A DNA stretch of 64,000 bases from an uncultured archaeon (GCA_938083505.1 CALKCF010000006.1:119047-183046); one strand, 5' to 3'. Positions 26,223-52,330 are shown, numbered from the stretch's first letter. A program made the numbers and translations. Notes: a model not told the origin generated them from the letters alone.

Positions 26223-29084
26223 GTGGGTGAGCTGACAAGCGAGAATGTATTGGAACTGTTGGCAAAGCCCGTCAGAGTAGCTTTTATCGAAAGGTTCAGA
26301 GAGCTGACCCCACCTCAGATCGAAAGCATACCAAAGATACTGGCGGGTAAAAACCTATTATTAATGGCGCCAACTGGTACTGGAAAGACTGAGGCTGCCC
26401 TTTTACCCATACTTAGTAACCTACTACAAAACCCTGGACTTCCAGGAATAAAGGCACTTTACATAACTCCGCTTCGTGCACTCAACCGGGACCTGTTGGA
26501 AAGGTTTGACTGGTGGGCCAAGAAGTTAGACATCAAAGTTTCTGTCAGGCATGGAGACACTGCGGTCGCGGAGAGAAGGACGCAAACACTTATCCCCCCA
26601 GACATACTGATAACGACCCCTGAGACGCTCCAAGCAATTCTGTGCGGAAAGGTCCTCAGGAAGCATTTGAAGGGAGTAAAGTGGGTCATCGTTGATGAGG
26701 TTCACGAGCTTGCTACAGATAAGAGAGGTGCACAACTTTCTATAGCGCTTGAGAGATTATTAGAAATAGTCGGTTCAGAGTTTCAGAGGATTGGCCTCTC
26801 AGCTACAATCGGCAGCCCGGAGATCGTAGCCAAATTCTTAGTTGGGCCCGGAAGGGGGTGCGAGATCGTAATGGTTCCAGTGGCTAAGGGTATGAAGATA
26901 GACGTCCTTTACCCTGTACCGGATGATGAGGATGTCATGCTGGCTGAGGAGCTTGCGATCTTGCCAGACGTGGCGTCAAGGCTTAGGACTATAAGGAGGC
27001 TTGTGGAGTTGCATGGTTCAACGCTGATATTCACGAATACGAGACCTTTGGCCGAGGTCTTGACTAACAGATTTAGGGCATGGGACGAGAGTTTCAGTGT
27101 GGGCATACATCATGGCTCACTGGCGAAGTCCGCAAGGATATCGACGGAGCAAGGCCTAAAGACCGGTGCGTTACTCGGAATAGTCTGCACATCGTCTCTA
27201 GAGCTCGGTATAGATGTAGGCAGGATAGACCTCTGCATACAGTACAACTCGCCTAGGGAAGTAACAAGACTCATACAGAGGGTCGGTAGGAGTGGCCACA
27301 GAATAGGAAAGATCGCGAAGGGTGTCATACTGGTTATGGACTCAGACGATGCTCTTGAGTCTATAGTTATAGCCAGAAGGGCGCTCATGGAAAAACTGGA
27401 GGAAGTCAGGATACCTACGAATTGTCTCGACGTACTAATGCATCAACTGGCTGGGCTCCTAATAGAGTACGGTCGTGTTAATGTAGAAGATGCTTTAAGG
27501 ATATTCAGTCGAGCATATGGTTTCTCAGAACTCGACAAGCATAAGCTCCTAAAGGTCCTTGAGCATATGAAGGGGTTAAATATTTGCGTGCTTACCGACG
27601 ACGGCTACTTTTGGAAACCTATAAACTCTAAACCCCTTTATGATTACTATTTCGGAAACCTTTCCATGATACCTGAAGAGAAACAGTACTTAGTCATTCA
27701 GGAGAACACGGGAGAGCCCGTAGGTATACTTGATGAGGAATTCGTCGCAGAGTATGGTGAGCCAGGAACGAGGTTCATATTAATTGGCAAAGTATGGGAG
27801 ATTCTCAGCACGCTTGGTGAAAAGATCTATGTCAGAAAGCTGGACGAGTATGAAGGTGCGGTGCCTTCATGGGTGGGCGACGAGATACCAGTACCTTACG
27901 AGGTGGCAGAAGAAGTTGGCATTATAAGAGCAGAGTACGAGGAGCGCCTTCGCAAAGGTGAGTCGCATGACACTATCTGTGCTCATATAGCAAAGAGGTA
28001 CGGTGTGTCGGAAGAGCTAATTTCGAGAAGTACATCCGAGATCAGGGCACATATTGACTCAGGGATACCCGTACCCACGAACAGGAGGATACTCGTGGAA
28101 AAGTCAGGAGAATACACCATAATACACATACATGGAGGGCTTAGGATAAACAGGACTTTAGCTAAAGCCATTTCGTTCTTAGTATCCGAGAGAATCGGGA
28201 TGCCACTCGCCGTCCAGCAAGACCCCTACAGAATCGTCATAAGATCGAAACACGTTAACCCAGAGCACATCGTTAATGCTTTAAAGAATTTATCTGAGGG
28301 GAGTTTCGGAGAAATATTAAGGAAAGCTATTGAGGGCTCAACGCTGTTCAGGAGAAGGTTAGTCCATGTTGTAAGGAAGATGGGTGTTGTCAGCAAAGAG
28401 GCAAGCATAGTCGACGTTAACCTTTCAAAAATAGTTGAAGTGTTAAAAGGCACGGTAGTTTACGATGAAGCAATGTCATATTGTTTGTTCCAAGATTTTG
28501 ATGAGCGTGGCGCATACGAACTTCTCCGCTCTATTCTTATGGGAAAATACGAGCTCGTAACATATTCATCACTCGATGCCGCGAGCCCATCGCCCTTGGC
28601 TTTACTCACGCTTAGGCGTTACCAGGAGGCCTATGAAGCAGTATCTTCGGACGGGATTGAAAGGCTAGTTTTGATGGCAGTAAGGGCCAGGCTTATGAAT
28701 GAAACGGGCGTCCTCATCTGTTCTGAGTGTTATCAGTACTTCGATAAGGTGACGGTCAAGGACGTTGACGAAAGACCCTCATGCCCTGTATGCGGCTCGA
28801 GAAAACTTGGTTTCCTAAAGAACGAGGTTGAGGATGTTTATGGCCTGATATCCAGAAAGGGCAAACCAATGAGTAGAAAGGAGAAAGAGTTGTTAAAAGA
28901 AATAGAAAGAAGTTCGGATTTGGTGGAGAAGTACGGGAAGACCGCCCTCGTGGCCCTATCAGGAAAGGGATTTACCGTGAATGATGCTGTCAAGATTCTG
29001 GAGAAAGAAGGGAGTTTAACGAATAGATTAATACAACACATAATAGAGGAGGAGAAGAAGAAATTGATTGCAACATTCAAATAG
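26223..29084 (+). CDS. lhr: Lhr-like SF2 helicase with C-terminal Cys-rich motif (aLhr1 type)
   Basis: PTGTGKT, DEVH, SAT, HHGSL, SSLELGIDVG, QRVGRSGH; CSEC...CPVC. Confidence 0.93.
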   Translation: MGELTSENVLELLAKPVRVAFIERFRELTPPQIESIPKILAGKNLLLMAPTGTGKTEAALLPILSNLLQNPGLPGIKALYITPLRALNRDLLERFDWWAKKLDIKVSVRHGDTAVAERRTQTLIPPDILITTPETLQAILCGKVLRKHLKGVKWVIVDEVHELATDKRGAQLSIALERLLEIVGSEFQRIGLSATIGSPEIVAKFLVGPGRGCEIVMVPVAKGMKIDVLYPVPDDEDVMLAEELAILPDVASRLRTIRRLVELHGSTLIFTNTRPLAEVLTNRFRAWDESFSVGIHHGSLAKSARISTEQGLKTGALLGIVCTSSLELGIDVGRIDLCIQYNSPREVTRLIQRVGRSGHRIGKIAKGVILVMDSDDALESIVIARRALMEKLEEVRIPTNCLDVLMHQLAGLLIEYGRVNVEDALRIFSRAYGFSELDKHKLLKVLEHMKGLNICVLTDDGYFWKPINSKPLYDYYFGNLSMIPEEKQYLVIQENTGEPVGILDEEFVAEYGEPGTRFILIGKVWEILSTLGEKIYVRKLDEYEGAVPSWVGDEIPVPYEVAEEVGIIRAEYEERLRKGESHDTICAHIAKRYGVSEELISRSTSEIRAHIDSGIPVPTNRRILVEKSGEYTIIHIHGGLRINRTLAKAISFLVSERIGMPLAVQQDPYRIVIRSKHVNPEHIVNALKNLSEGSFGEILRKAIEGSTLFRRRLVHVVRKMGVVSKEASIVDVNLSKIVEVLKGTVVYDEAMSYCLFQDFDERGAYELLRSILMGKYELVTYSSLDAASPSPLALLTLRRYQEAYEAVSSDGIERLVLMAVRARLMNETGVLICSECYQYFDKVTVKDVDERPSCPVCGSRKLGFLKNEVEDVYGLISRKGKPMSRKEKELLKEIERSSDLVEKYGKTALVALSGKGFTVNDAVKILEKEGSLTNRLIQHIIEEEKKKLIATFK

Positions 29085-29101: not shown

Positions 29102-29536
29102 ATGGGTAAGGAATATCCAAAGATGCCGGTTGTCGCCGTAGGTGCCTTAATACTTCAAGACCGCAACATACTTCTCGTTAGAAGGACGAACGAGCCCGGC
29201 AAGGGAAAGTGGTCGATCCCGGGCGGCACTGTCGAACTCGGAGAATCGTTGAAGGATGCTGTAGCCAGGGAAGTTTATGAGGAAACAGGTCTTGTGGTTG
29301 AGGTGTCCGAGTTGCTAGACATAATCGAAGTTATCAGGAGAGACGACGCTGGTAAAATAGTCTTCCATTATGTAATTCTCGATTACCTGGCTAAACCTGT
29401 TGGCGGTACGCTTAGGGCTGCATCCGACGCTTCTGACGTCATATGGGCATCTGTGGACGAGATCATGAATATGGAGATTACGGATAGCCTAAGAAAGATG
29501 CTTCGTAAGCTGAAAGAAAAAGGATTCTTTAGCTAG
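29102..29536 (+). CDS. NUDIX hydrolase
   Basis: GGTVELGESLKDAVAREVYEETG Nudix box. Confidence 0.95.
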   Translation: MGKEYPKMPVVAVGALILQDRNILLVRRTNEPGKGKWSIPGGTVELGESLKDAVAREVYEETGLVVEVSELLDIIEVIRRDDAGKIVFHYVILDYLAKPVGGTLRAASDASDVIWASVDEIMNMEITDSLRKMLRKLKEKGFFS

Positions 29537-30141
29537 GCTTCCTCTTTTGTATTGTCCCTCCGTTGGTTTTGTTGGGGCGAGGCGATCTCCGTTATTGCCT
29601 TAAGTAACTCTTTTTCATCAACTTCTGCCAACGTCCTCCACCCGACTTTTATCATGTCATCCTCAAATTTCGTAAGGTATCCTTTCTTAGTAAATCGCTC
29701 TATAACAGCCTCTACCCTCTGTCTTGGAAACTTTATCTCCAGGAGCTCCACCAGCTCCTTCTCGGAAGCCTTACCACCCTTCGTGAATATGTAGGAGAAT
29801 ACTGCAGCTAAGATTGCGACGTCCTCTATGTTCCAACCTGCGGCCACTATATCAGCGACAGAGAGCGGTTCGGAGAGTGTGACGAAAAACCTAGCCTTAT
29901 CAAAGTCATCTCGAGCCGGGCTATCACTCGACAGTTGATCGAATACTATCTTTACTCTAAGACCTATGCTATTCAATCTATTGTTCAACGCATCGATTAT
30001 CTTGAGGTAATTCTTACCCAACCTCCTACGTAGTTCCCAACCCCTGACACCTGGAAGCTTATGACTTGAGAAGAGAAGCATGCTGGTGGCTATCATTAAC
30101 TTCTTAGCTGTTCGTTCGGTCTCACTTTTTCTGTCTTCCAA
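29533..30141 (-). CDS. Kite-family tandem winged-helix protein (Nse1/Nse3-MAGE/ScpB-like)
   Basis: Third gene of smc-scpA operon; C-half resembles MAGE WH-B (IFTKGGKASEKEL...FTKKGYL...GWRTLAE); TTG 30141 follows GGAGGTG SD. Confidence 0.65.
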   Translation of the reverse strand: MEDRKSETERTAKKLMIATSMLLFSSHKLPGVRGWELRRRLGKNYLKIIDALNNRLNSIGLRVKIVFDQLSSDSPARDDFDKARFFVTLSEPLSVADIVAAGWNIEDVAILAAVFSYIFTKGGKASEKELVELLEIKFPRQRVEAVIERFTKKGYLTKFEDDMIKVGWRTLAEVDEKELLKAITEIASPQQNQRRDNTKEEA

Positions 30142-30913
30142 GATCCTTTGACACCTCCCCACCTCTTAATGAGACCACGAATGCTGCTACCTTCTCTCTC
30201 TTACGTTTTGAGAGAAACGGTATCACTTTTATCTCCCCAGTAAGGGGGTTCTTCTTTATCTCCGCTAAACCTTCACTGACGACGAAGCTGAGTACATAGG
30301 CTCTCCATACTGTCTCCTCAAAGGTGTCAGCCTTCACTATGGACCAATAATCTACTTCACCATCGCTTCCTGCCATCATGAGACAACTTTCGTGCATTCT
30401 CCTCACTTCCTCTTCTAACGTTACATCCTTCGCGTAACCAACCCCCTTTAAGATATGCAATGCATCCTCCTGAGTTGCCGGAAGTTTCTCATAAGCCCTA
30501 TCCTTAGGCGGCAACATTAAGAAATACTCTATCCCCTGCCTTAGCCTGTAAAGTGTAAGCTGTTCGGCTCTGACGATTGGTCTCCAGCTCCTAGCGAGTG
30601 CCGCAGCCAACTGCTTCGGTTCGGCAGAGGTTATCTTGAGCGACACCAATTGACTGTCTATGAAGAGCGACGAGGTCCTTTCCTTCAACCACTTTTGTTG
30701 TAGCGATATCAAAACGGCTATCTTATAAAGCGTCTCAGCATCGAGGATTATAATGTCCAAATCCTTATACTCTTCCAATATGCGTCTTAGCTTCATTAGG
30801 AGCTCCTTCACATTGACGGAGAATGGGTCCAGACCTTTATTCTCGATAGACTCGCAAAGCGCTATTATCCTCTCCAGCTCCTCTCTACTTATTGCCTTTT
30901 TTTCACGAGACAT
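30122..30913 (-). CDS. scpA: Kleisin (ScpA-like)
   Basis: N-terminal LDPFSVNV.EL...LD (cf. ScpA IDPWDIDI); C-terminal wHD VDYWSIV...RAYVLSFV.SEG...GEIKV. Confidence 0.75.
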   Translation of the reverse strand: MSREKKAISREELERIIALCESIENKGLDPFSVNVKELLMKLRRILEEYKDLDIIILDAETLYKIAVLISLQQKWLKERTSSLFIDSQLVSLKITSAEPKQLAAALARSWRPIVRAEQLTLYRLRQGIEYFLMLPPKDRAYEKLPATQEDALHILKGVGYAKDVTLEEEVRRMHESCLMMAGSDGEVDYWSIVKADTFEETVWRAYVLSFVVSEGLAEIKKNPLTGEIKVIPFLSKRKREKVAAFVVSLRGGEVSKDLGRQKK

Positions 30914-30919
30914 ACTGCA

Positions 30920-32707
30920 TTACCTTTCTACCACACCAACTGACGACTTTCCGCTGACGTTTTGGACGAGTATAACATTTGTATCATCGTCCACGTTTAT
31001 GTAACCGGGCGTTATTATTATGTACTGAACGTACGGATCGGCCTTGGCGGTTGCCGTCAACATCTTTATCATTCTTTCCCGATTAAGCGGATCTAAGTGG
31101 ACATCGAACTCATCGACAGCCCTGAACGGCGACTTAACGTACTTTTGCAGTGCAAGAAGGAAGGCGAGCGTCGCCACTATCCTCTCACCACCGCTTTGCG
31201 TATGGGAGTCTAAGAGTACGGGTTCGACGCCCCTGAAACCAACATAAAGGTCAAGAGATGCCTTCTCGATATCCTCTAAGTTACGTAGGGATATCTTACC
31301 ATTCGCATCAACAAACTTTAGTATTTGGATATAAGCCGGTTCGACCTCATCCACGAGCTCCCTTAGGAACCTCCTCCAAACTTCCTTTCTACGCTCAACT
31401 TCTTCCTTTGTCTTCTGTATGTTCTCAGATAACTGCTTGGCCTTCATCTCGACCTCGCTGTACTTAGCATCCGCTAAGATGTACATTTCTTCGGCGTTGG
31501 GTGTCACATTACCCAGGGAGCTTATTTGGATCTCTAGGATCTTCAAGTCCTCCTGGATTTCCGTCGGTTTTCTGCTGGTCTCGATTCGAGGCCCTTTCAG
31601 CTCAGCCTCAGACATCTGGGATGCGAGCTTAGTCTTCAGCTCGCTTAACTGGGACTTTAGTTTTCTCACCTCAGATTCCGTTAGATGTATCTTGAACCCT
31701 GCGACTCCTTCCTGTACCTTCTCCTTGATGAGTTCATCCATCAACCCATCTATCTTTTTTTCCAAATCGTCTAAAACTTCATACGTTTGAGATGTCGTCT
31801 CCCTTAATTGGCGCACTGTTTCACGAATCTTCTCGCGTAAAGCCCTGGCCCTTAACTCGCACTCCCTAGCCTCTTTGTCCAAACCCTCAATCTCTAAAAC
31901 AAGTGAAGCGATTTTATCCTCAACCCTCTTTACATCGTTCTCTAGTGCTATAACTTGAGACCATGCAAGCTCTCTTTCGAGTTCAAATCTATGCTCCTCA
32001 AACCTCCTGAGCTTTATCAGCTTCTCGTACTCTTCTTTCCAGTATTCAACGGTTGCCCTGGCTTCTTCTAGCGTCTTCTTGAAGTTCACTTCCTCTGTTA
32101 GTAACATGTTCAGCTTAGCCTCGGCATCCAATATCCTTTCCCTAAGTCTCGATGCGCCTACGGCATCCTCGACCATCTGGAGCTTCTCAATACTGCTTTT
32201 GGTGACGAACTGCTCTATCATGTTCTGGTGCATTATGATGAGCATATTATTGGGGTTAATGCCCACCTGCTTAAGCAAATGATCGACCTCGGCCTTTGTC
32301 ATGAATCTGTTGTTCACATAGTGCCAGTAGTCCCCATTCCTCTTCAGGTATCTTGCGACGGATACTGTGTCTGTATTTATCGTTTTGAATGCTCTTTTGC
32401 CGTTGTGAGCGCTATTGTCAAACACTACGGTGACCCTAGCAACATCCTTTCCGCGACGTATTAGGTCGCTTAGCCGCTCGCCCCTCTCTGTGTAAGTCTG
32501 ACCAAGGGCAACGGATATTCCAAGGAGTATTGAGGACTTTCCAGCACCGTTGGGTCCCATTATAACATTAAGGCCTGGTCTCAGCGGTATCCTGGAGTAT
32601 TCGTGGGACATGAAGTTCTCCAGGATTACCTCCTTTATGTGTGGTACAGACTTAGCCCTTTGCTTTAACTCGAGCCTTTCCGCAGACCGTTCGTCCGTAT
32701 CTTCCAC
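30920..32707 (-). CDS. Short SMC-family ATPase, Smc5/6-like (ClsN/Arcadin-4/ASRP-type)
   Basis: LENFMSH, GPNGAGKS, MHQ Q-loop, QSGGER signature, SPFRAVDEFDVHLD, IITP; 595 aa. Confidence 0.9.
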   Translation of the reverse strand: MEDTDERSAERLELKQRAKSVPHIKEVILENFMSHEYSRIPLRPGLNVIMGPNGAGKSSILLGISVALGQTYTERGERLSDLIRRGKDVARVTVVFDNSAHNGKRAFKTINTDTVSVARYLKRNGDYWHYVNNRFMTKAEVDHLLKQVGINPNNMLIIMHQNMIEQFVTKSSIEKLQMVEDAVGASRLRERILDAEAKLNMLLTEEVNFKKTLEEARATVEYWKEEYEKLIKLRRFEEHRFELERELAWSQVIALENDVKRVEDKIASLVLEIEGLDKEARECELRARALREKIRETVRQLRETTSQTYEVLDDLEKKIDGLMDELIKEKVQEGVAGFKIHLTESEVRKLKSQLSELKTKLASQMSEAELKGPRIETSRKPTEIQEDLKILEIQISSLGNVTPNAEEMYILADAKYSEVEMKAKQLSENIQKTKEEVERRKEVWRRFLRELVDEVEPAYIQILKFVDANGKISLRNLEDIEKASLDLYVGFRGVEPVLLDSHTQSGGERIVATLAFLLALQKYVKSPFRAVDEFDVHLDPLNRERMIKMLTATAKADPYVQYIIITPGYINVDDDTNVILVQNVSGKSSVGVVER

Positions 32708-41982: not shown

Positions 41983-43485
41983 GGTCGGAATCGTTGTCGG
42001 TGAGGCGCGACCAGAGCGAATACAATTTCTCGCCAAAGACGTAGTTAGGGTTGGGGAATTTGTCACGGTAGATACTATAGACGGACGGGTCTTATACTTA
42101 GTGGAGTCCTCTATATTGGAAAGCAAACTCCTATCAAAAGTAGAGGATTATATAACTGCGATGGAGGCAAAGGAGGGCGAGTAAGGTCAATCCTAGAGAT
42201 ACTTGTAGGCGTTGTGTTGCACGAGCCGTTGGATTGGTCAAAGAGATCTCAAAGGGCATGTGCGTTTATCCTACGCTACCACCCGATCCAGGCTCGTTCG
42301 TATTTCTTGCCGAGGATGTGTTGCTGAAAGAAATATTTCATAAAAGTTCAGAGGAGTTTGTCGAAGTTGGAAGGTTATTGAGGAGGAGCGGTGTCAAAGT
42401 TTCTGTTAACTTAAATAAGGTTGCCTCCAGACATCTTGCGATATTGGCAACCACGGGCAAAGGAAAAGTCAAATCTTTTGGCACTAATAGCAAAAAGAAT
42501 AGCGGATAAGAACGGGACTATGATAATATTGGACTATCACGCAGAGTACTATGGCCTGAAGATCGAGAGGAAAGTAAAGCACGTGGCTCCGAAGATTAAC
42601 CCAAGATATCTGGATTCCGAGGAGCTGGCAGGGATGCTCGATATAAGGGGTGACGCCACAAGACAAAGGGACATACTCAGAAGGGCGTACACTGAAAATG
42701 TGGCAAGGTCGTCGACCTTCTGGGATGATTTGAAGAAGAACCTTAGAGACATGGCAGAAAACGAAAAAGACTTCCATATAAGGACTACGGCCAGTAGGGT
42801 CTTAGAGATTGTCGAGAGAAACCTCGCGATAAAAGGCAACATATTCGACACAGAAATAGATAGTCCGCTCAACGTTATAGATCCTAACAAGATAAACGTG
42901 CTAGACATTTCGAGTCTAACAGAAGAGCAAGCCCAGATAGTTGTGGCGCATTACCTTACAGAAATCCTGAACGATAGGAAAAACGCCACATTTGGAAGAA
43001 GCTCAAGATTCAGATCACCCGTAGTTGTAGCGGTTGAAGAGGCCCATACCTTCATACCATCAGACAAAAACGGCAGAAGTTCTAGGTGCGCCAGCGTGCT
43101 GGCAAGAATAGCAAGAGAAGGAAGAAAGTTCGGGGTCTCACTGATTTTGGTTTCACAGAGACCATCTAAGCTGAATGCGAATGTGGTGAGCCAAATGGGT
43201 AGCTTCGCCATATCCGGATTAACTCATCCGAGAGACCAGAGTTTCGTTATGGAAGTTACGGATGAGGTACCGAACGAGCTGAGCGCATCCTTACCGAGCC
43301 TCAACACTGGCGAGATGATACTAGCTGGCCAATGGGTAACCGTGCCAGCACTTGTTAAAGTGGACTTAGTCGAAGAAAAGCACATAGGTATGGACTTAGA
43401 TACTGTAAAGTTATGGAAGGAAACGTCTAGAGAGGCTGACGTGAAACATAAAAGGATATCAACGGAGGAACTCATCAAACTATGA
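41975..43485 (+). pseudogene. herA: HerA helicase/translocase, split by two +1 frameshifts (pseudogene, recoding or assembly error)
   Basis: Removing one G at 42175-42177 and one A at 42464-42467 gives a single ORF with RHLAILATTGKGKSN, EEAH, IAREGRKFG, SQRPS. Confidence 0.85.
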
Positions 43486-44597
43486 TTATTGGGCACCTAT
43501 CCGACACACATCTCGGAGCTTATGCAGGAGAGGATGAGGAAAGGGAACAGGACTATTACGAGGCCTTCCGTGAAGCTATTGAGATTTTCGCAAAGGAACG
43601 CGTTGAGTTTGTCATACACTCAGGCGATATATTGCATTCTTTTAAACCGTACGGAACTGCCATGAGAGCCCTTGCGGAGGGTGTTAAAATGTTGAACGAA
43701 AAAGGCATAAGGTTCATCTATACCTTGGGTGATCATGACATACCTAAGGTTCCCAGCACACCTCATCCCTGCATCCTCGATATCTTGGGGCTTGCTAACT
43801 ATGTTGGAAGAGGGAGGCCGATAGTCGTAAGAGATATCATCGTGGTAGGTCTCTATAAGCATAAGAGAATTGAGAAGGAAAATTTGTGCAAGAAGCTCAA
43901 AGACATCGCTGAGGGAATAAAGCAGATTGACGGAAAGAGGAAGGTTCTTGTACTGCACCAAGGGATTACCGAGTTACACAGATCCGCGGGCGAGATATCT
44001 AAATACGATATTCCAACAGATTTTGATTATTACGCAATGGGACACTTTCACATGCCCTGCGAGTTTAGGCACGGCAACGGTTTAGGTTCATATCCAGGAA
44101 CGACGCACTGGGTAGACTGGAACGACCCAGAGTTCTCTTCCGTTAACTTAGTCGACCTTTCTGCCGATGAGCCGAAAATAAACAGAGTTAGGCTGGAGTC
44201 CGTGAGGCCAAGGATCGAGAGGCGCGTAAGACTAGAAGAGCTGGGAGCTCTTGTGCAGATGTTAGCGTCGCCTACGCATAAGCGCCATAAGAGGCCGTGT
44301 CTATTAATAACGGTGGAGGCTAGTAGACCTTTTGACCCTAAACCGTTTGAGGATTTACTGAGCCCGTCCTATATAGTCGCAATCGAACAAGTTCTGAGGG
44401 AAGTAGGTAGCGAAGTTATGAGAGAAGCTCCTGACATAGATGCTGAGCTTATGAGGTTGGCGGAGGTTGTGTTAGGAAGTAAGGAAAGGGCTGAGTTTGC
44501 ACTATCCGAGCTACTCGAGGCCCTTAACAGCGAAGATTGGAGGGGGAGTGTACTTGAGGTCGTCTGGAAGGTATTTAAGGATGGTAGGTTCAAATGA
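43482..44597 (+). CDS. mre11: Mre11 nuclease
   Basis: HLSDTHLG, HSGD, GDHD, VLHQG, YYAMGHFH, YPG. Confidence 0.93.
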   Translation: MIIGHLSDTHLGAYAGEDEEREQDYYEAFREAIEIFAKERVEFVIHSGDILHSFKPYGTAMRALAEGVKMLNEKGIRFIYTLGDHDIPKVPSTPHPCILDILGLANYVGRGRPIVVRDIIVVGLYKHKRIEKENLCKKLKDIAEGIKQIDGKRKVLVLHQGITELHRSAGEISKYDIPTDFDYYAMGHFHMPCEFRHGNGLGSYPGTTHWVDWNDPEFSSVNLVDLSADEPKINRVRLESVRPRIERRVRLEELGALVQMLASPTHKRHKRPCLLITVEASRPFDPKPFEDLLSPSYIVAIEQVLREVGSEVMREAPDIDAELMRLAEVVLGSKERAEFALSELLEALNSEDWRGSVLEVVWKVFKDGRFK

Positions 44598-46867
44598 TCA
44601 CCAAAGTTCTTCTCAAGAACTTTACGTCGCATAAGGATACGTTATTAGAGTTAGGACCCGGTCTTAACGTATTCGTAGGCAGAAACGGTTCTGGGAAGAC
44701 TTCCGTCTTAGATGGGATAACATACACACTCTTCGGCAAACATAGAAGGGGAAGCAATGTCAACATAGTCATGGACGGGGCACTAGCAGGTCACGTAGAA
44801 GTTGAGTTCACACTAGACGGTAAGAAGTACACGGTCGGCAGGACTTTCGACGTTCAGGGCAGGTTAGAGGATGCCTACTTAAGAGTTGATGGAAAACCTT
44901 TGGTTAGCGGTGAGAGAAAGAAGGATGACGCTGTAAGCAAGAGGATTGAGAAGATCCTACGTATGGGATATGAGAGGCTAAGAAGTGCCGTAATCATCCA
45001 GCAAGGAGAGATCGATAGGATACTTTCTTGGGAACCTAAGGAGATAAAGGAACTATTCGATGACCTATTAGGCCTCGACATTATGGAGAGTGCCTATGAA
45101 AGGATGAAGAGTGTGAGTAAAGATTTTGACGAGAGGATAAGGAAAGAGACGGGATATTCTGTCAACGACGTTGGTAACCTTAGCAAAAGAATCTCCGAAG
45201 ATGAGGCCGCTATAAGCAAGCTTAACGAAGAGCTGAGAGAGAATGAACGACAGCTTAATGAACTAAAGGAAGAGTACGAAGCGATAAAGGCTGAGTTAGA
45301 AAAGATGGAACGGTTCAGAAACACATACTATAATGTTTTATCTCAAATCAGCTTTATTAAGGGCATTGTTAAGAATTGGATAGCGAGGGAGAAAGAAGAG
45401 CTTGATAGATGTAAGTCAGCTTTAGAGCGGATAAAGATAAAGGATGATGTTGATGAGATAGTTGACCTGAAAGAGAAACTGAAAGAGGAAATCGTGAAGC
45501 TGGAGAAGGATATCGAACACTTGAGGAGAGAAATAGACAGTGTTAAGAAAGAAGGGGAGGAAGTGGATGAAAAACTGAAAGCGTTAGGCGAAGAAAGCTT
45601 TGAGGGAAGAGAGTTTTCTGAAATCAAGAAGGAGGTCGATCGAAGGACCATTGAACTTATTGATATGGCCGTGGAGCTTGGCAAATCGTTAACGAGTAGA
45701 GACGGAAGGGAAACTTCTCTGAGGGGAGCTATAGAGGGAAAGAAGAAGGAAATACTGGAGCTTTTTGATGAGTCCTACAGATCCGGGATCAGGAAGTACC
45801 TCGAAGACCTAAAGAACAGGAAGATTGGCATGAACGAAAGGTTGGAGAGGGCATTATCAAAGCTTGAATCATTAATGAGAGATTTGAATAATAAGAGGGG
45901 TGAATTGCAGCGAATCTTCAAATTGTATGGTAAGGATTTTGAGGATTTGCAAGAAGAAATTAGAGAGGCTCAAGGCATCCTGAAAGCTGCCAGCATCGAT
46001 AATATAAAGAAGTTTGACTCTAGGAAGGAAAGGCTAGAAAAGATTGAGAAAGCGCTTGTGTCAATATCAGAAGATGATCTTCCAGAACCTGAGTTGCTCT
46101 ACAACATAGCTGTGACAGATGACGTTATCCAAAAGATAAAGAGCGTTGAAGTTATGATGCCAGATGCCAAGAGCTTCAATAAGGAGCGGTACGAAAACAT
46201 AGCGAGGCGTCACGAGGAACTTCAGAGGAAGATCGGCGAGCTAGAGGGCAGTATCGAGAGGATAAGAAAAGACATCAAGGAGAGAGAGGATGAGCTTTTT
46301 AAGCTAAAAAGCATAATCAGCGTACTAGAGGATGCCAAGAAGTTCCGGGACTTCCTCGATGATATTAGGAATAAGGTATACTATAGAGATGGCCCTGTGC
46401 TCAAATCCCTAAGATCGTGGACTATCAGAGAAGTATCGAGGTTTGCCACAGAACATCTGGAATCGTTCAACATCAATGTAGACGGAATAAAGCTCGAGGA
46501 GGTTAGCGACGAGGTCGAGATCAAGTGCTACCAAAGAGGGAGGGAGGTTGATAGTGATAGGCTTAGCGGTGGTGAGAAGGTTGCTGTAGCCCTCGCCCTT
46601 AGGCTTGCTATCGGCGACATACTTGGCGCGAGAAGGTTAGGCTTTTTTATACTCGATGAGCCGACCGTGCACCTTGACTTCGAGAATAAAAGGAGGATTG
46701 CAAAAGTCTTTTCGGCGCTGAGCAAAGAGGTTAGGCAAGTAATAGTAATCACGCACGACGAAGAAGTTTTTGAGGAGGCAGAGGCTACGCTTTACAAGTT
46801 TGAAAGGAGGCCTGGAATGGGAGGGTACACCAAGGTTAATCTGGTAGGAAGGCCAGCGTGGGCATGA
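44594..46867 (+). CDS. rad50: Rad50 ATPase lacking CxxC zinc hook
   Basis: LKNFTSH, GRNGSGKTS, QQGEI, LSGGE, LDEPT.HLD, ITHD. Confidence 0.93.
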   Translation: MITKVLLKNFTSHKDTLLELGPGLNVFVGRNGSGKTSVLDGITYTLFGKHRRGSNVNIVMDGALAGHVEVEFTLDGKKYTVGRTFDVQGRLEDAYLRVDGKPLVSGERKKDDAVSKRIEKILRMGYERLRSAVIIQQGEIDRILSWEPKEIKELFDDLLGLDIMESAYERMKSVSKDFDERIRKETGYSVNDVGNLSKRISEDEAAISKLNEELRENERQLNELKEEYEAIKAELEKMERFRNTYYNVLSQISFIKGIVKNWIAREKEELDRCKSALERIKIKDDVDEIVDLKEKLKEEIVKLEKDIEHLRREIDSVKKEGEEVDEKLKALGEESFEGREFSEIKKEVDRRTIELIDMAVELGKSLTSRDGRETSLRGAIEGKKKEILELFDESYRSGIRKYLEDLKNRKIGMNERLERALSKLESLMRDLNNKRGELQRIFKLYGKDFEDLQEEIREAQGILKAASIDNIKKFDSRKERLEKIEKALVSISEDDLPEPELLYNIAVTDDVIQKIKSVEVMMPDAKSFNKERYENIARRHEELQRKIGELEGSIERIRKDIKEREDELFKLKSIISVLEDAKKFRDFLDDIRNKVYYRDGPVLKSLRSWTIREVSRFATEHLESFNINVDGIKLEEVSDEVEIKCYQRGREVDSDRLSGGEKVAVALALRLAIGDILGARRLGFFILDEPTVHLDFENKRRIAKVFSALSKEVRQVIVITHDEEVFEEAEATLYKFERRPGMGGYTKVNLVGRPAWA

Positions 46868-50087: not shown

Positions 50088-50987
50088 ATGAAAAATAGGT
50101 GGATAACCATAGCGCTCATTGTTATACTCACAGTTTCTGTTTTGTTCATTTCCATTTACCAAACAAGACAATATGAGAACGTCATACGTGTTACCACGGC
50201 AACGAGCCTGTACGCCACTGGTCTACTTGATAAATTAGCTGAGGAATTTAAGCGAAGGTACCCGGAAGTTTCGATTCATTTCATCGCAGTCGGTAGCGGC
50301 GAAGCTTTGCGAAGGGCTGTACGTGGCGATGCTGATATGGTTTTATCGCACGCACCGAACCTCGAGAGGCAGTACCTCAACGACGGGGTACTGAAATCCG
50401 GCGGGATATTCGCATATAACTACTTAATCATAGTCGGGCCTAGCGAAGACCCTGCCAACATAGCTGGCATGGACCCCGTTAGGGCCATGACCGCCATCTA
50501 CGTTGCGGGTGAAGAGGGCAAGGCAAAATTCGTATCCAGAGCGGACAAATCGGGGACGCATGCTAGAGAGTTAATGTTGTGGTCGTTGGCTGGTGTTAAC
50601 CCATTAAATAAGCAGTGGTACTTGGAGCTTGGAGCGGACATGGTTCAAACATTGATGGTGGCCAACGAGAAGGGAGCTTATACGCTCAGCGACGTCAGCA
50701 CTTATCTTAAATTCAGCAAAAGGCTGGGCGGGCTAAAAACGCTTATCGAGAAAGGGGATGCGTTGCTCAATGTCTACTCCGTCTACGTTGTTAACTCGGC
50801 AAAGGTCCCCGGCGTGAACGAAAAGCTGGCTGAGGCTTTCATGAAGTTCATACTCTCAGAGGAGGGACAAAAGATAATTGAAGGCTACGGCATCGTCGAG
50901 TTCGGCAGACCTCTGTTCAACGCGGCAAATGGTGACCCAAAGGGGGAACTTAAGAATGCTTGGGAGGACATTGCTAAGCTTGGATGA
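50088..50987 (+). CDS. tupA: Tungstate ABC transporter substrate-binding protein
   Basis: TTATSLYATGLL, GSGEAL, HAP, N.LIIVGP..DPA, FVSRADKSGTH.RE, YTLSD..TY; N-terminal TM anchor. Confidence 0.92.
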   Translation: MKNRWITIALIVILTVSVLFISIYQTRQYENVIRVTTATSLYATGLLDKLAEEFKRRYPEVSIHFIAVGSGEALRRAVRGDADMVLSHAPNLERQYLNDGVLKSGGIFAYNYLIIVGPSEDPANIAGMDPVRAMTAIYVAGEEGKAKFVSRADKSGTHARELMLWSLAGVNPLNKQWYLELGADMVQTLMVANEKGAYTLSDVSTYLKFSKRLGGLKTLIEKGDALLNVYSVYVVNSAKVPGVNEKLAEAFMKFILSEEGQKIIEGYGIVEFGRPLFNAANGDPKGELKNAWEDIAKLG

Positions 50988-51020
50988 GTCCTGTATATGT
51001 TTTGAGCGAGGTCTGCAACT

Positions 51021-51659
51021 ATGTGGCAAGAGTTAACCGATATTGTCGTAAGGTCCTTACTCATTTCTGGAATGGCCACGGTACTCGCTACATCTTGGGG
51101 TATACCCATCACCATGATTCTGACGGTCAAGGAATCCAAATTTAGGAGGGCTTTACTCGATGTTGCAAATACGCTTGTTGCTATCCCGACGGTCTTAATA
51201 GGCCTCCTACTCTACCTTTTATTCTCTCGTTCGGGTCCCTTGGGTTTCTTTGGTATACTCTACACGCCCACCTCAATCGCCCTCGGTGAGGCTATTCTGA
51301 TTACACCTCTCATAATTTCACTCAGTGCATCCGTACTTCGCGAGACGAAGACAGATATTTGGGAGATGGCCATCTCGATAGGCGCAACCGAAAGACAGGC
51401 ATTGGTCGTAATGGTGACAGAGTCGCTTCCGAAGTTACTGACGGCTGTTTTACTAGGTTTCAATAGAGCCATAGGTGAACTCGGTGTAGCTCTTATACTT
51501 GGAGGCAACATCAAAGGACTCACGCGTGTTATGACAACAGCAATAGCCCTAGAGGTCTCTAAGGGTGAGTTTGAGCTTGCCCTAACACTTGGAGGAATTT
51601 TGCTTTTCGTTACGTTCTTAGTAACGGTAATAGTCAGGAAGGTGGGTAGGGACTTATGA
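51021..51659 (+). CDS. tupB: Tungstate ABC transporter permease
   Basis: P.VLIGL..Y.L.SRSGPLG, GF.RAI.ELG...GGNI.G.TRVMTTAI. Confidence 0.93.
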   Translation: MWQELTDIVVRSLLISGMATVLATSWGIPITMILTVKESKFRRALLDVANTLVAIPTVLIGLLLYLLFSRSGPLGFFGILYTPTSIALGEAILITPLIISLSASVLRETKTDIWEMAISIGATERQALVVMVTESLPKLLTAVLLGFNRAIGELGVALILGGNIKGLTRVMTTAIALEVSKGEFELALTLGGILLFVTFLVTVIVRKVGRDL

Positions 51660-52330
51660 TAGAGCTGAAAGGTGTTTCGTTTGCATATGTAAAAGAAGAT
51701 GTCATTAAGGACGTAAACCTCTTGCTAGGTCCAGGCGTAACCGCAATCATAGGACCAAACGGTTCGGGAAAGACGACCTTGCTAAAGCTGGCAGCCGGCA
51801 TATATAGGCCACGAGTGGGCGAAGTCCTGATAGACGGGATCAATCCATGGTCCGTGCCGGAGACCGTTAAGACATCAATAAGACGGAATGTTGTCTATAT
51901 ACATGAGGAGCCTATAATGCTCAGAGGTAGCGTCGCCGATAACGTCGCTTATGGTTTAAGAATTAGGAAATTGCCTGCTGATGAAGTCGTCATTAGGACC
52001 GAGGAGGTGTTAGAGGTACTTGGCATTAAACATCTGGCACATGAAAAAGCTCAAACACTCTCAGCTGGACAGAAACAAAGGGTGGCCCTAGCCAGGGCCT
52101 TGGCCGTTAGACCGAAGAACCTGCTACTTGATGAGCCTACGGCAAACTTGGACAGGTGTGGCCGGGAAACATTAATGGAGTTGGTAAAAGATTTGGTAAG
52201 AAAGGGTGTTTGTATCGCAATAGCGACGCATGATAGACTTCTTGCCTTTAAGCTGACGGATAGAGTCGTTTTCGTAGAGAATAAGACAGCAATTTTCGTT
52301 GAGGGATCAGGAGGACGCTGGTTGATTTAA
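51656..52330 (+). CDS. tupC: Tungstate ABC transporter ATPase
   Basis: GPNGSGKTT, LSAGQKQRVALARAL, LDEPTANLD, THD. Confidence 0.9.
   Translation: MIELKGVSFAYVKEDVIKDVNLLLGPGVTAIIGPNGSGKTTLLKLAAGIYRPRVGEVLIDGINPWSVPETVKTSIRRNVVYIHEEPIMLRGSVADNVAYGLRIRKLPADEVVIRTEEVLEVLGIKHLAHEKAQTLSAGQKQRVALARALAVRPKNLLLDEPTANLDRCGRETLMELVKDLVRKGVCIAIATHDRLLAFKLTDRVVFVENKTAIFVEGSGGRWLI

What the first reader, a model, noticed from the sequence alone, without database searches (positions are those of the whole stretch)
29533..32707. Minimal archaeal Smc5/6-like complex: ATPase + kleisin + MAGE/Nse3-like kite in one operon
Seen: three tightly coupled minus-strand genes (6-nt gap, then an overlap). The ATPase motifs LENFMSH and SGGER...SPFRAVDEFDVHLD read like eukaryotic Smc6 (NFMCH; SPFRCLDEFDVYMD) rather than condensin Smc (P.P.Y..DE.DAALD). 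Gene 2 has both ScpA-type kleisin ends. The C-half of gene 3 (SYIFTKGGKASEKELVELL...FTKKGYL...GWRTLAEVDEKELLKAITEI) parallels MAGE WH-B (LIFMKGN.ASEEEIWEFL...FVQEKYL...[21 protein letters not shown]). Established: short archaeal SMC relatives (ClsN, Arcadin-4, ASRPs) are known and have been linked phylogenetically to Smc5/6. Inference: this is a complete, self-contained ancestral-type Smc5/6 holocomplex whose role (chromosome compartmentalisation, repair, or restriction of extrachromosomal DNA) is untested.
Basis: partly seen in the sequence, partly recalled or inferred. Interest (0 to 1): 0.85.

Follow-up and report, generated by a model that had tools for sequence, protein, structure and literature searches.

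The report
Short-armed archaeal Smc5/6-like complex operon
Three tightly coupled genes in a hot-spring aigarchaeote encode a relative of the eukaryotic Smc5/6 chromosome-maintenance complex (ATPase, kleisin, Nse1/3-type kite); this kind of operon is already published, but the lack of any hinge or zinc hook on its ATPase was not discussed in the papers I could read.

Summary
Three minus-strand genes lie at 29533-32707: a 595-aa SMC-family ATPase, a 6-nt gap, a 263-aa kleisin, then an overlapping kite of about 202-209 aa.

- The ATPase's best solved relatives are Smc5 and Smc6, and it shares their NFM, RxxDEFDV and ITP motifs.
- The kleisin family profile hits Nse4, and its model has a kleisin C-terminal winged helix.
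- The kite model's best matches are Nse3, MAGE and Nse1.

The same genome also carries a canonical Smc-ScpA-ScpB operon. The kite is single-copy in 43 of 43 high-quality genomes of the order, and the gene order held in nearly all complete loci examined. This is a core housekeeping complex, not a defence island.

The idea is not new. Yoshinaga & Inagaki 2021 and the van Hooff et al. preprint already describe SMC5/6-related SMC+kleisin+kite operons in TACK and Asgard archaea.

What they do not discuss, as far as I could read, is the architecture:
- The ATPases next to the kite are 574-756 aa, with no hinge and no CxxC hook.
- Rarer forms of about 1016-1071 aa, named only in Bathyarchaeia, carry a central CxxC.
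- A modelled homodimer of the arms touches only at the arm tip (ipSAE 0.46, best control 0.00).

The function is untested.

The parts
30920..32707 (-). SMC-family ABC ATPase, 595 aa, SMC5/6-related archaeal type with a short arm
   Evidence: Pfam SMC_N 7.4e-39. Best solved relatives are Smc5 and Smc6. Head tree.
32534..32557 (-). Walker A (GPNGAGKS, residues 51-58)
   Evidence: Invariant in 48 family members; sequence.
31352..32152 (-). Antiparallel coiled-coil arm (residues 186-452), with no hinge domain and no CxxC
   Evidence: No SMC_hinge hit at E<=1, and none among the 25 families most matched by 48 members. The protein has a single Cys. Alignments to Smc5/6 skip about 475 residues of distal arm and hinge. 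Arm pLDDT was 83-84.
31691..31837 (-). Arm tip (residues 291-339), predicted symmetric homodimer interface
   Evidence: complex prediction ipSAE 0.46 against best control 0.00, with contacts only in 291-339. The hydrophobic positions are 75-98% hydrophobic across the family.
31091..31195 (-). Signature motif SGGER and Walker B/D-loop FRAVDEFDVHLD (residues 505-539); the catalytic Glu is present
   Evidence: The RxxDEFDVxxD form is shared with Smc6.
30122..30913 (-). Nse4-like kleisin, 263 aa
   Evidence: Family profile against PDB: Nse4 5e-5, EID3 5.5e-4. Pfam Nse4_C in 11 of 25 members. Model and fold matches.
30209..30421 (-). Kleisin C-terminal winged-helix domain (residues 165-235)
   Evidence: VIA-align Z 9.8, rmsd 2.3 A over 69 residues to ScpA-C bound to an Smc head (4i99). 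Z 8.2 to Scc1-C and Z 7.9 to Nse4-C.
29533..30162 (-). Kite subunit of the Nse1/Nse3/MAGE type, tandem winged helix, 209 aa (202 aa from TTG 30141)
   Evidence: Pfam MAGE 2.8e-4. 11 of 33 homologues hit MAGE and 6 of 33 hit SMC_Nse1. Model pLDDT 80. Foldseek best matches are Nse3 at 1.3e-6, MAGE-G1 and Nse1.
29614..29829 (-). Second winged helix (WH-B, residues about 112-183) of the kite
   Evidence: The Pfam MAGE match covers residues 114-183, which is profile positions 118-206 of 207. Secondary structure.

Best explanation
The three genes form one operon for an archaeal SMC5/6-related SMC-kleisin-kite complex. It is a second, housekeeping SMC machine beside the canonical Smc-ScpA-ScpB that the same genome also encodes.

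Shown by computation:
- An SMC-type ABC ATPase with all catalytic motifs intact.
- A kleisin with an N-terminal helical domain and a C-terminal winged helix, of the Nse4 type.
- A tandem winged-helix kite of the Nse1/Nse3/MAGE type.
- Conserved order and coupling of the three genes.
- Core-gene distribution across the order.

Inferred from solved Smc5/6, Smc-ScpAB and MukBEF complexes: two ATPases engage their heads around two ATP. One kleisin bridges them, with its N-domain on the neck of one ATPase and its C-terminal winged helix on the cap of the other. A kite dimer sits on the middle of the kleisin. DNA is clamped on top of the engaged heads.

Unlike every kleisin-binding SMC with a solved structure, the arm is short: roughly 115-130 residues per strand, which by my estimate is about 15-20 nm. 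It ends in neither a hinge nor a zinc hook. I propose that the two arms are joined by a small two-fold symmetric helical bundle at the tip (residues 291-339). The complex would then be a small ATP-gated DNA clamp or bridge acting in genome maintenance (repair or junction handling, or local chromosome organisation), not a long-range loop extruder. The cellular role is a guess.
For: - ATPase identity and affinity. In the head tree the archaeal family joins eukaryotic Smc5+Smc6 (SH-aLRT 93). Canonical SMCs, including this genome's own 1154-aa SMC, form a separate clade (99), and the Rad50-like rows lie outside.
- Kleisin.
- Kite.
- Operon: junctions; synteny.
- Second complex in the same genome: SMC at C6:47315-50779, a 218-aa ScpA-like gene at 50766-51422 and ScpB at 51406-51951. 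The two sets are not recent copies: kite against ScpB shows no similarity, and the two kleisins share only weak C-terminal similarity.
- Core-gene status: the kite is single-copy in 73 of 76 genomes of the order, 43 of 43 high-quality ones and 15 of 15 genera. It is found in 149 of 301 genomes of the phylum, nearly all-or-none per family.
- No fourth conserved gene.
- Short arm without hinge or hook.
- Tip dimer: arms 186-452 in two copies gave a median ipSAE of 0.46 against a best control of 0.00. The runs agree in at least 78% of contacts and the partner pLDDT is at least 83. In the tool's calibration this mark was reached by 20 of 30 solved homodimers and 1 of 23 monomers. The interface is confined to residues 291-339.
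- Literature agreement: PMC8665677 and bioRxiv 10.1101/2024.01.07.573240.
Against: - The AU test does not reject a tree that puts the archaeal family with canonical SMC (p 0.142, lnL difference 24.7). The specific Smc5/6 affinity of the ATPase therefore rests on the best tree, best-hit ranking and shared motifs, plus the independent Nse4 and Nse1/3 signals.
- The kite and kleisin Pfam hits of the window's own proteins are below the curated cut-offs.
- Sequence-only searches of the kite against PDB found nothing.
- The kleisin model is of middling confidence (pLDDT 69, pTM 0.37).
- No subunit-subunit contact was tested.
- The tip dimer is a model score. Coiled coils are easily laid side by side, and the unrelated-protein controls do not control for that.
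- There are no expression or functional data.
- In three of 80 loci the kite stands without the other two genes within 4 kb.
Confidence: 0.8

Rival explanations
1. It is a divergent second copy of the prokaryotic condensin type (Smc-ScpAB paralogue) with no special relationship to eukaryotic Smc5/6. On this view the Smc5/6-like motifs and the Nse-like hits reflect convergence or retained ancestral characters.
For: The AU test cannot reject grouping the family with canonical SMC (p 0.142). The kleisin C-terminal winged helix superposes best on ScpA-C. ScpB and MukE also appear among the kite's fold matches. The gene order is the same as in the genome's own Smc-ScpA-ScpB operon.
Against: Three independent subunits point the same way. 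The ATPase best hits and motifs point to Smc5/6. The kleisin profile hits Nse4 about 700-fold better than ScpA, and Pfam Nse4_C, not SMC_ScpA, is the family matched. The kite hits MAGE and Nse1 in Pfam, and Nse3, Nse1 and MAGE lead the fold search, while it shows no similarity to the genome's own ScpB. Published kleisin and kite trees place such archaeal proteins with Nse4 and Nse1/3.
Confidence: 0.1
2. It is an ASRP or coalescin (ClsN/Sph)-type archaeal SMC-related protein with two accessory proteins, acting in chromosome compartmentalisation as ClsN does in Sulfolobus.
For: The size is similar (the ASRP model is 593 positions long), and there is a weak NCBIfam ASRP match (1.8e-20). The rarer long relatives, named in Bathyarchaeia, carry a central CxxC as ASRPs do.
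Against: The ASRP score is 73 bits against a curated cut-off of 300. [quoted passage not shown] In the head tree, two of the three ASRP-search-derived hook proteins fall with Rad50 outside the SMC clades; the one sequence above the ASRP cut-off (L040) is left unresolved on a very long branch. PMC9389158 reports no consensus in the genes flanking ASRP genes.
Confidence: 0.05
3. It is an SMC-based defence system of the Lamassu or Wadjet kind that senses foreign DNA.
For: PADLOC ATPase models match the ATPase (mad3 9e-33, LmuB 5e-22). LmuB is also about 650 aa with short arms (PMC10586767). Eukaryotic Smc5/6 restricts episomal DNA, according to the same review.
Against: The kleisin and kite have no PADLOC hit. 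There is no effector gene and no fourth conserved neighbour. The Walker B Glu is intact, unlike typical LmuB. The kite is single-copy and present in 43 of 43 high-quality genomes of the order, whereas defence systems are patchy. The flanking genes are housekeeping ones. The PADLOC scores are no higher than the generic SMC_N score.
Confidence: 0.03

Closest known systems
Archaeal 'SMC5/6-related' SMC-kleisin-kite operons (Yoshinaga & Inagaki 2021, PMC8665677; van Hooff et al., bioRxiv 10.1101/2024.01.07.573240)
   Same: The lineage is the same (TACK/Thermoproteota; Caldarchaeales genomes are listed in a supplementary table of the preprint). The three-gene operon of SMC + Nse4-like kleisin + Nse1/3-like kite is the same. 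It coexists with a canonical SMC complex in the same genome. This window is a member of that published group.
   Different: Nothing differs in kind. Those papers are phylogenomic. Their main text and held supplements do not contain 'shorter', 'truncated' or 'coalescin', and mention the hinge only for SMCs in general. The short hinge-less, hook-less arm and the predicted tip dimer are therefore additions made here.
Eukaryotic Smc5/6 with Nse1-Nse3-Nse4
   Same: Head motifs are shared: NFM before Walker A, RxxDEFDVxMD at Walker B, and Q(Y/F)xxITP in place of the His switch. The kleisin is Nse4-like and the kite fold is of the Nse3/MAGE/Nse1 type. The likely working principle is an ATP-gated DNA clamp formed by heads, kleisin and kites.
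   Different: This complex is presumably a homodimer of one ATPase and one kite type, not Smc5+Smc6 and Nse1+Nse3. The arm is about half as long or less, and there is no hinge. The kite has no RING domain, and no Nse2, Nse5 or Nse6 is encoded nearby. ATPase identity is only about 24-28%.
Prokaryotic Smc-ScpA-ScpB
   Same: The architecture is SMC + kleisin + kite dimer, with the same gene order. The kleisin C-terminal winged helix superposes on ScpA-C (Z 9.8).
   Different: The genome has its own Smc-ScpAB (1154-aa SMC with long arms). The kite here shows no sequence similarity to that ScpB. The heads fall in a different clade.
RecN (bacterial SMC-like repair ATPase)
   Same: From my own knowledge, not tested here: RecN is about 550 aa, has a short antiparallel coiled coil without hinge or zinc hook, and dimerises through the tip of the coiled coil.
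   Different: RecN has no kleisin or kite partners and is bacterial. NCBIfam recN matches only weakly (5e-8, 32 bits against a cut-off of 408).
ASRP / coalescin ClsN / Sph (PMC9389158)
   Same: It is an archaeal SMC-superfamily ATPase of about 600 aa with a short coiled coil.
   Different: ASRPs carry a zinc hook, and that paper reports no consensus in the genes flanking ASRP genes. Here there is no hook, there is a fixed kleisin+kite pair, and the ASRP score is far below cut-off.
Lamassu LmuB (PMC10586767)
   Same: It is a short-armed SMC-like ATPase of about 650 aa.
   Different: LmuB is Rad50-like, often has a zinc hook, usually has a Walker B E-to-Q change, and is coupled to an effector. 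None of this applies here.

Membership tests
SMC-kleisin-kite complexes, SMC5/6-related branch | SMC-type ABC ATPase head split between the N and C termini, with Walker A, Q-loop, signature motif, Walker B and D-loop | tested here: met
   Pfam SMC_N 7.4e-39 spans residues 23-566. GPNGAGKS, Q161, SGGER and DEFDVHLD are invariant or nearly so in 48 members.
SMC-kleisin-kite complexes, SMC5/6-related branch | Head closer to Smc5/Smc6 than to canonical SMC or Rad50, by best hits and diagnostic motifs | tested here: met
   PDB ranking: Smc5 9e-35, Smc6 2e-24 and 1e-21, Pyrococcus Smc head constructs 7e-26 and weaker, Rad50 2e-9. The next best cluster representatives outside the family include named Smc6. 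NFM, RxxDEFDV and ITP motifs are shared with Smc5/6 and absent from the canonical SMCs and Rad50 aligned.
SMC-kleisin-kite complexes, SMC5/6-related branch | Head forms a clade with Smc5/6 with statistical significance | tested here: inconclusive
   The best tree joins the family to Smc5+Smc6 with SH-aLRT 93 (quick search, 55 rows, 372 columns). The AU test does not reject the alternative grouping with canonical SMC (p 0.142).
SMC-kleisin-kite complexes, SMC5/6-related branch | Long coiled-coil arm ending in a hinge dimerisation domain | tested here: not met
   There is no SMC_hinge hit at E<=1, and it is not among the 25 families most matched by 48 members. Alignments to Smc6 cover residues 22-295 and 346-575 of the query, skipping Smc6 residues of about 353-827. 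Only about 50 residues lie between the two arm strands.
SMC-kleisin-kite complexes, SMC5/6-related branch | Kleisin: N-terminal helical domain plus C-terminal winged helix, Nse4 type | tested here: met
   Profile against PDB: Nse4 5e-5, EID3 5.5e-4, ScpA-C 0.035. Nse4_C in 11 of 25 members. Model secondary structure. Z 9.8 to ScpA-C and Z 9.1 to Nse4 over residues 1-251.
SMC-kleisin-kite complexes, SMC5/6-related branch | Kite: tandem winged-helix protein, Nse1/Nse3/MAGE type | tested here: met
   Model pLDDT 80 with two winged-helix units. Foldseek best matches: Nse3 1.3e-6, MAGE-G1, Nse1, MAGE-A4, then JetB, MukE and ScpB. Pfam MAGE in 11 of 33 and SMC_Nse1 in 6 of 33 homologues.
SMC-kleisin-kite complexes, SMC5/6-related branch | Physical binding of the kleisin to the ATPase neck and cap, and of the kite to the kleisin | not tested
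Binding is inferred only from homology and from operon conservation.
Eukaryotic Smc5/6 holocomplex | Heterodimeric Smc5+Smc6, Nse1 with a RING domain plus Nse3, and Nse2 and Nse5/6 subunits | tested here: not met
   The own-genome search found only three SMC_N proteins above cut-off: the canonical SMC, this ATPase and Rad50. The kite is single-copy in every genome with a match, including this one, and at 209 aa leaves no room for a RING. No fourth gene is conserved next to the operon.
ASRP (ClsN/Sph) | Score above the NCBIfam ASRP cut-off, and a zinc-hook CxxC at the coiled-coil tip | tested here: not met
   73 bits against a cut-off of 300. One Cys and no CxxC. No CxxC in any ATPase found next to the kite.
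Lamassu / Wadjet defence systems | SMC-like sensor coupled to an effector (LmuA or JetD), with patchy distribution | tested here: not met
   No PADLOC hit for the two partner proteins. No conserved effector neighbour. Present in 43 of 43 high-quality genomes of the order.

The most novel reading that the evidence does not exclude
In Thermoproteota the SMC5/6-related complex is, as a rule, a 'mini-SMC': a kleisin- and kite-binding SMC ATPase of 574-756 aa that has lost, or never had, both hinge and zinc hook. It would be held together at the arm tip by a small helical bundle. The rarer long-armed relatives, named in Bathyarchaeia with a partial Asgard (Hermodarchaeota) relative carrying the same motif, use a central CxxC hook. 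If so, long arms and a hinge are dispensable for the core Smc5/6-type activity. The complex would then act as a compact ATP-gated DNA clamp, and the eukaryotic Smc5/6 hinge would need its own evolutionary explanation.
Probability: 0.45. Interest if true: 0.7.

Novelty: new variant of a known kind. Interest (0 to 1): 0.5.

Why it matters
That TACK archaea carry an Smc5/6-like SMC + Nse4-like kleisin + Nse1/3-like kite operon is already in the literature. The headline of this finding is therefore a confirmation, not a discovery.

What could matter is the architecture. As far as I know, every kleisin-binding SMC complex with a solved structure joins its arms through a hinge. Current models of loop extrusion and DNA-segment capture rely on long arms that enclose a large compartment. 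A naturally minimal, thermostable complex made of proteins of about 600, 260 and 200 aa, conserved as a core gene set in a whole archaeal order, would be useful in two ways. It would be a tractable system for cryo-EM and single-molecule work on what the head-kleisin-kite module can do on its own. It would also be a reference point for how eukaryotic Smc5/6 arose.

Tried and rejected
- Sequence-only searches of the kite against PDB chains, both single sequence and 33-member profile, found no kite. Only Pfam and the fold search showed the relationship.
- A single-sequence search of the kleisin against PDB found nothing; the family profile was needed.
- hhalign of the kite family against the genome's own ScpB gave no similarity (probability 0.5%). 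The two kleisins share only a weak C-terminal match (probability 35%).
- The AU test of the alternative head topology was not significant (p 0.142).
- PADLOC gave only generic ATPase matches, so the defence reading was rejected.
- ASRP and Rad50 membership were rejected on score and on the missing hook.
- I looked for a fourth conserved partner gene. Only an uncharacterised protein of about 235 aa (10 of 21 loci) and an Lhr-type helicase (6 of 21) recur, and neither is universal.
- Literature searches for an explicit description of hinge-less archaeal Smc5/6-like ATPases found none in the held library. That library is incomplete, so this is weak evidence of novelty.
I therefore have no metagenome-contig context for the long CxxC forms and no expression data.

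Full report
**What is there**

The window is G000:C6:119047-183046 of a 1.15-Mb genome that is 98.5% complete. Its kite protein is 77-81% identical to those of 'Candidatus Terraquivivens' MAGs (Caldarchaeales, formerly Aigarchaeota).

One search shows three minus-strand ORFs:
- 30920-32707, 595 aa
- 30122-30913, 263 aa
- 29533-30162, 209 aa from GTG

I read the junctions directly. The ATPase stop is followed by a 6-nt spacer and the kleisin ATG. The kleisin stop lies 20 or 41 nt inside the kite gene, depending on whether the kite starts at TTG 30141 or GTG 30162; homologues start at the TTG position.

**The ATPase**

Pfam SMC_N matches from residue 23 to 566 (7.4e-39), and there is no SMC_hinge hit. 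Walker A, the Q-loop Gln, SGGER and Walker B DEFDVHLD are invariant or nearly so in 48 family members. This looks like an active ABC ATPase.

Among all PDB chains the ranking is:

| Chain | E-value |
|---|---|
| Yeast Smc5 | 9e-35 |
| Human Smc5 | 3e-30 |
| Pyrococcus Smc (head constructs) | 7e-26 and weaker |
| Human Smc6 | 2e-24 |
| Yeast Smc6 | 1e-21 |
| Rad50 | 2e-9 |

In an exhaustive HMMER scan of 1.84 billion cluster representatives, its own archaeal family comes first. Of ten of the next-ranked proteins of about 1060-1160 aa that I looked up, seven are named Smc6.

| Position | This family | Smc5/6 | Canonical SMC |
|---|---|---|---|
| Before Walker A | ENFMS(H/Y) | Smc6 NFMCH | GFKSF |
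| Walker B | SPFRAVDEFDVHxD | Smc6 SP(F/I)RxLDEFDVFMD | PFYxFDE(V/I)(D/E)AxLD |
| Switch region | QYxxITPG | Smc5 QYFxITPK, Smc6 QFIFxTP | QxIx(V/I)(T/S)(H/L) |

The genome's own Rad50 reads ITHD at the switch position.

I built a head-only tree (55 rows, 372 columns, LG+C20, quick search). It joins the archaeal family to eukaryotic Smc5+Smc6 with SH-aLRT 93. Canonical SMCs, including this genome's own, form a separate clade (99). Rad50 and two ASRP-search-derived hook proteins lie outside; the one sequence above the ASRP cut-off (L040) sits unresolved on a very long branch. An AU test does not reject the alternative grouping with canonical SMC (p 0.142). On the ATPase alone the Smc5/6 affinity is therefore favoured but not proven.

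**The kleisin**

The window's own protein gives only a weak Pfam Nse4_C hit (0.04). A 25-member family profile does better:
- yeast Nse4 at 5e-5
- human EID3 at 5.5e-4
- Pyrococcus ScpA-C at 0.035

Eleven of 25 members hit Nse4_C, the best at 1e-6. The AlphaFold model has pLDDT 69. It shows three long N-terminal helices, a low-confidence middle and a C-terminal winged helix. Foldseek's best matches are kleisins (ScpA-C, Nse4, Brn1, Rad21). VIA-align gives Z 9.8 with rmsd 2.3 A over 69 residues to ScpA-C bound to an Smc head. It gives Z 9.1 to yeast Nse4 spanning residues 1-251, and Z 8.2 to Scc1-C.

**The kite**

Pfam MAGE matches residues 114-183, the WH-B half of the MAGE homology domain, at 2.8e-4 and 21 bits against a cut-off of 25. 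Across 33 homologues, 11 hit MAGE (best 8e-6) and 6 hit SMC_Nse1. One source already names a close homologue a MAGE-domain protein.

The model has pLDDT 80 and shows two winged-helix units. Its best Foldseek matches, in order, are Nse3 (7dg2_C, 1.3e-6), MAGE-G1, Nse1, MAGE-A4, JetB, yeast Nse3 and Nse1, MukE and ScpB. These are the kite superfamily, with the Nse1/3/MAGE branch first.

**Context and distribution**

The same genome has a canonical operon about 100 kb away on the same contig:
- SMC, 1154 aa, at C6:47315-50779
- a 218-aa ScpA-like gene at 50766-51422
- ScpB at 51406-51951

It also has a separate HerA-Mre11-Rad50 cluster inside the window. The two SMC gene sets are anciently diverged.

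The kite gene is single-copy in 73 of 76 genomes of the order, 43 of 43 high-quality ones and all 15 genera. It is found in 149 of 301 genomes sampled across the phylum, in a nearly all-or-none pattern per family.

In 20 loci from 20 different families, all 18 complete ones have ATPase, kleisin and kite in that order, closely spaced. The same holds in the named public loci wherever the contig reaches far enough: Caldarchaeum, Calditenuis, Pelearchaeum, Bathyarchaeia, Methanosuratincola, Culexarchaeum, Hecatellales and one Hydrothermarchaeota MAG. The exceptions are three loci with the kite alone.

No fourth gene is universally conserved. PADLOC matches only the generic ATPase. This is a core housekeeping complex, not a defence island.

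**Comparison with the literature**

Yoshinaga & Inagaki 2021 (PMC8665677) defined 'SMC5/6-related aSMC' in TACK archaea. They noted that many such genomes also keep a canonical SMC.

Van Hooff et al. [quoted passage not shown] One has an Nse4-related kleisin and an Nse1/3-like kite. Caldarchaeales genomes appear in one of their supplementary tables.

ASRPs (ClsN, Sph) are a separate zinc-hook family, and Arcadin-4 nests with Rad50 (PMC9389158). Neither is the group linked to Smc5/6.

**What is less described: the arm**

The protein is half the length of an SMC. Its alignments to Smc6 cover residues 22-295 and 346-575 and skip about 475 residues of distal arm and hinge. It has one Cys and no CxxC.

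This is the rule for the family, not an accident of this genome:
- About 50 of the closest 50%-identity clusters are 541-685 aa.
- Every complete ATPase found next to a kite is 574-756 aa and lacks CxxC.
- A minority of close relatives (39-52% identical) are 1016-1071 aa; those that carry a name are from Bathyarchaeia. A partial Hermodarchaeota protein of 795 aa is also related. All of these carry a CxxC almost exactly at mid-length, like a zinc hook.
- In the head tree the long forms are one clade nested, weakly, among the short ones.

The two evolutionary papers do not mention arm length, hinge loss or a hook for these proteins in the text and supplements I could search. Four further library searches found no description. 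Two other first-stage notes of this scan flagged the same property.

**How the arms might join**

Two copies of the arm (residues 186-452, with a 48-row alignment) gave a median ipSAE of 0.46 against a best control of 0.00. The runs agreed in at least 78% of contacts, and the partner pLDDT was at least 83. In the tool's calibration this mark was reached by 20 of 30 solved homodimers and 1 of 23 monomers.

The confident contacts are symmetric, often the same residue on both copies, and are confined to residues 291-339 at the arm tip. The hydrophobic positions of that patch (I294, L312, I319, M323, L326, I327, V331, V335, F338) are hydrophobic in 75-98% of family members, although sequence identity there is low.

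This supports a small parallel helical bundle as a hinge substitute, but it does not show it. Coiled coils are easily modelled side by side, and the unrelated-protein controls do not address that.

**Mechanism and function**

By analogy with solved Smc5/6, Smc-ScpAB and MukBEF complexes, I expect a 2:1:2 assembly. It would clamp DNA on ATP-engaged heads under the kleisin-kite module. The short arms, roughly 15-20 nm by my estimate from about 115-130 residues per strand, would be joined at the tip and enclose only a small second compartment.

That favours a DNA clamp, bridge or junction-handling role over long-range loop extrusion. A weak hint towards repair is that an Lhr-type helicase is the immediate neighbour here and in 5 other of 21 loci. 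The cellular role remains a guess.

**Verdict**

- Identity as a member of the published archaeal SMC5/6-related complexes is likely (about 0.8).
- The operon-level claim is already known.
- The hinge-less, hook-less short arm with a predicted tip dimer is a variant that deserves experimental follow-up.

Noticed in passing
window 44594-46867 (+), with 43482-44597 and 42421-43485: The Rad50 next to Mre11 and HerA is only 757 aa. It has two widely separated Cys (273, 645) and no CxxC zinc hook. Both SMC-superfamily ATPases in this window therefore lack the usual tip dimerisation motif. The herA ORF here is only 354 aa.
   Followed up: partly
window 26223-29084 (+): A 953-aa Lhr-type helicase (DEAD, Helicase_C, WH_Lhr, DEAD_assoc) lies beside the operon, with a NUDIX gene between them. 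An Lhr homologue is also the neighbour in 5 other of 21 loci from other families. This is a possible, weak, functional link to DNA repair.
   Followed up: partly
L031:3701-4390 (-), L039:3624-4343 (-), L037:3674-4363 (-), L026:10095-10802 (+) and others; in the own genome at G000:C3:37232-37918, outside the window: An uncharacterised protein of about 235 aa, with no Pfam family and only 'hypothetical' clusters in the ESM Atlas, recurs in 10 of 21 loci. In most of them it lies divergently and immediately upstream of the ATPase gene. In this genome its homologue is on another contig.
   Followed up: partly
proteins P0120-P0125, P0213, P0218, P0227 (those with names are from Bathyarchaeia) and P0256 (partial, Hermodarchaeota): Close relatives of the ATPase (39-52% identical) are 1016-1071 aa and carry a CxxC (CDKC, CEVC or CERC) almost exactly at mid-length, like a zinc hook. 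I have not seen an SMC5/6-related ATPase with a Rad50-style hook described. Their gene neighbourhood could not be fetched.
   Followed up: partly
G000:C6:47315-51951 (outside the window; loci L001, L002, L009): This is a canonical operon of SMC (1154 aa), a 218-aa ScpA-like protein and ScpB (181 aa), with overlapping genes in the same order as the Smc5/6-like operon. The genome therefore encodes two complete SMC-kleisin-kite sets.
   Followed up: yes
L079, L083, L085 (Calditenuaceae and Caldarchaeales MAGs): In three of 80 public loci the kite gene has no kleisin or ATPase gene within 4 kb. The operon appears to be split or rearranged in that subgroup.
   Followed up: no
window 29102-29536 (+): A NUDIX hydrolase gene converges on the kite gene. 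The two stop regions overlap by 4 nt (29533-29536), which leaves no room for a terminator between them.
   Followed up: no
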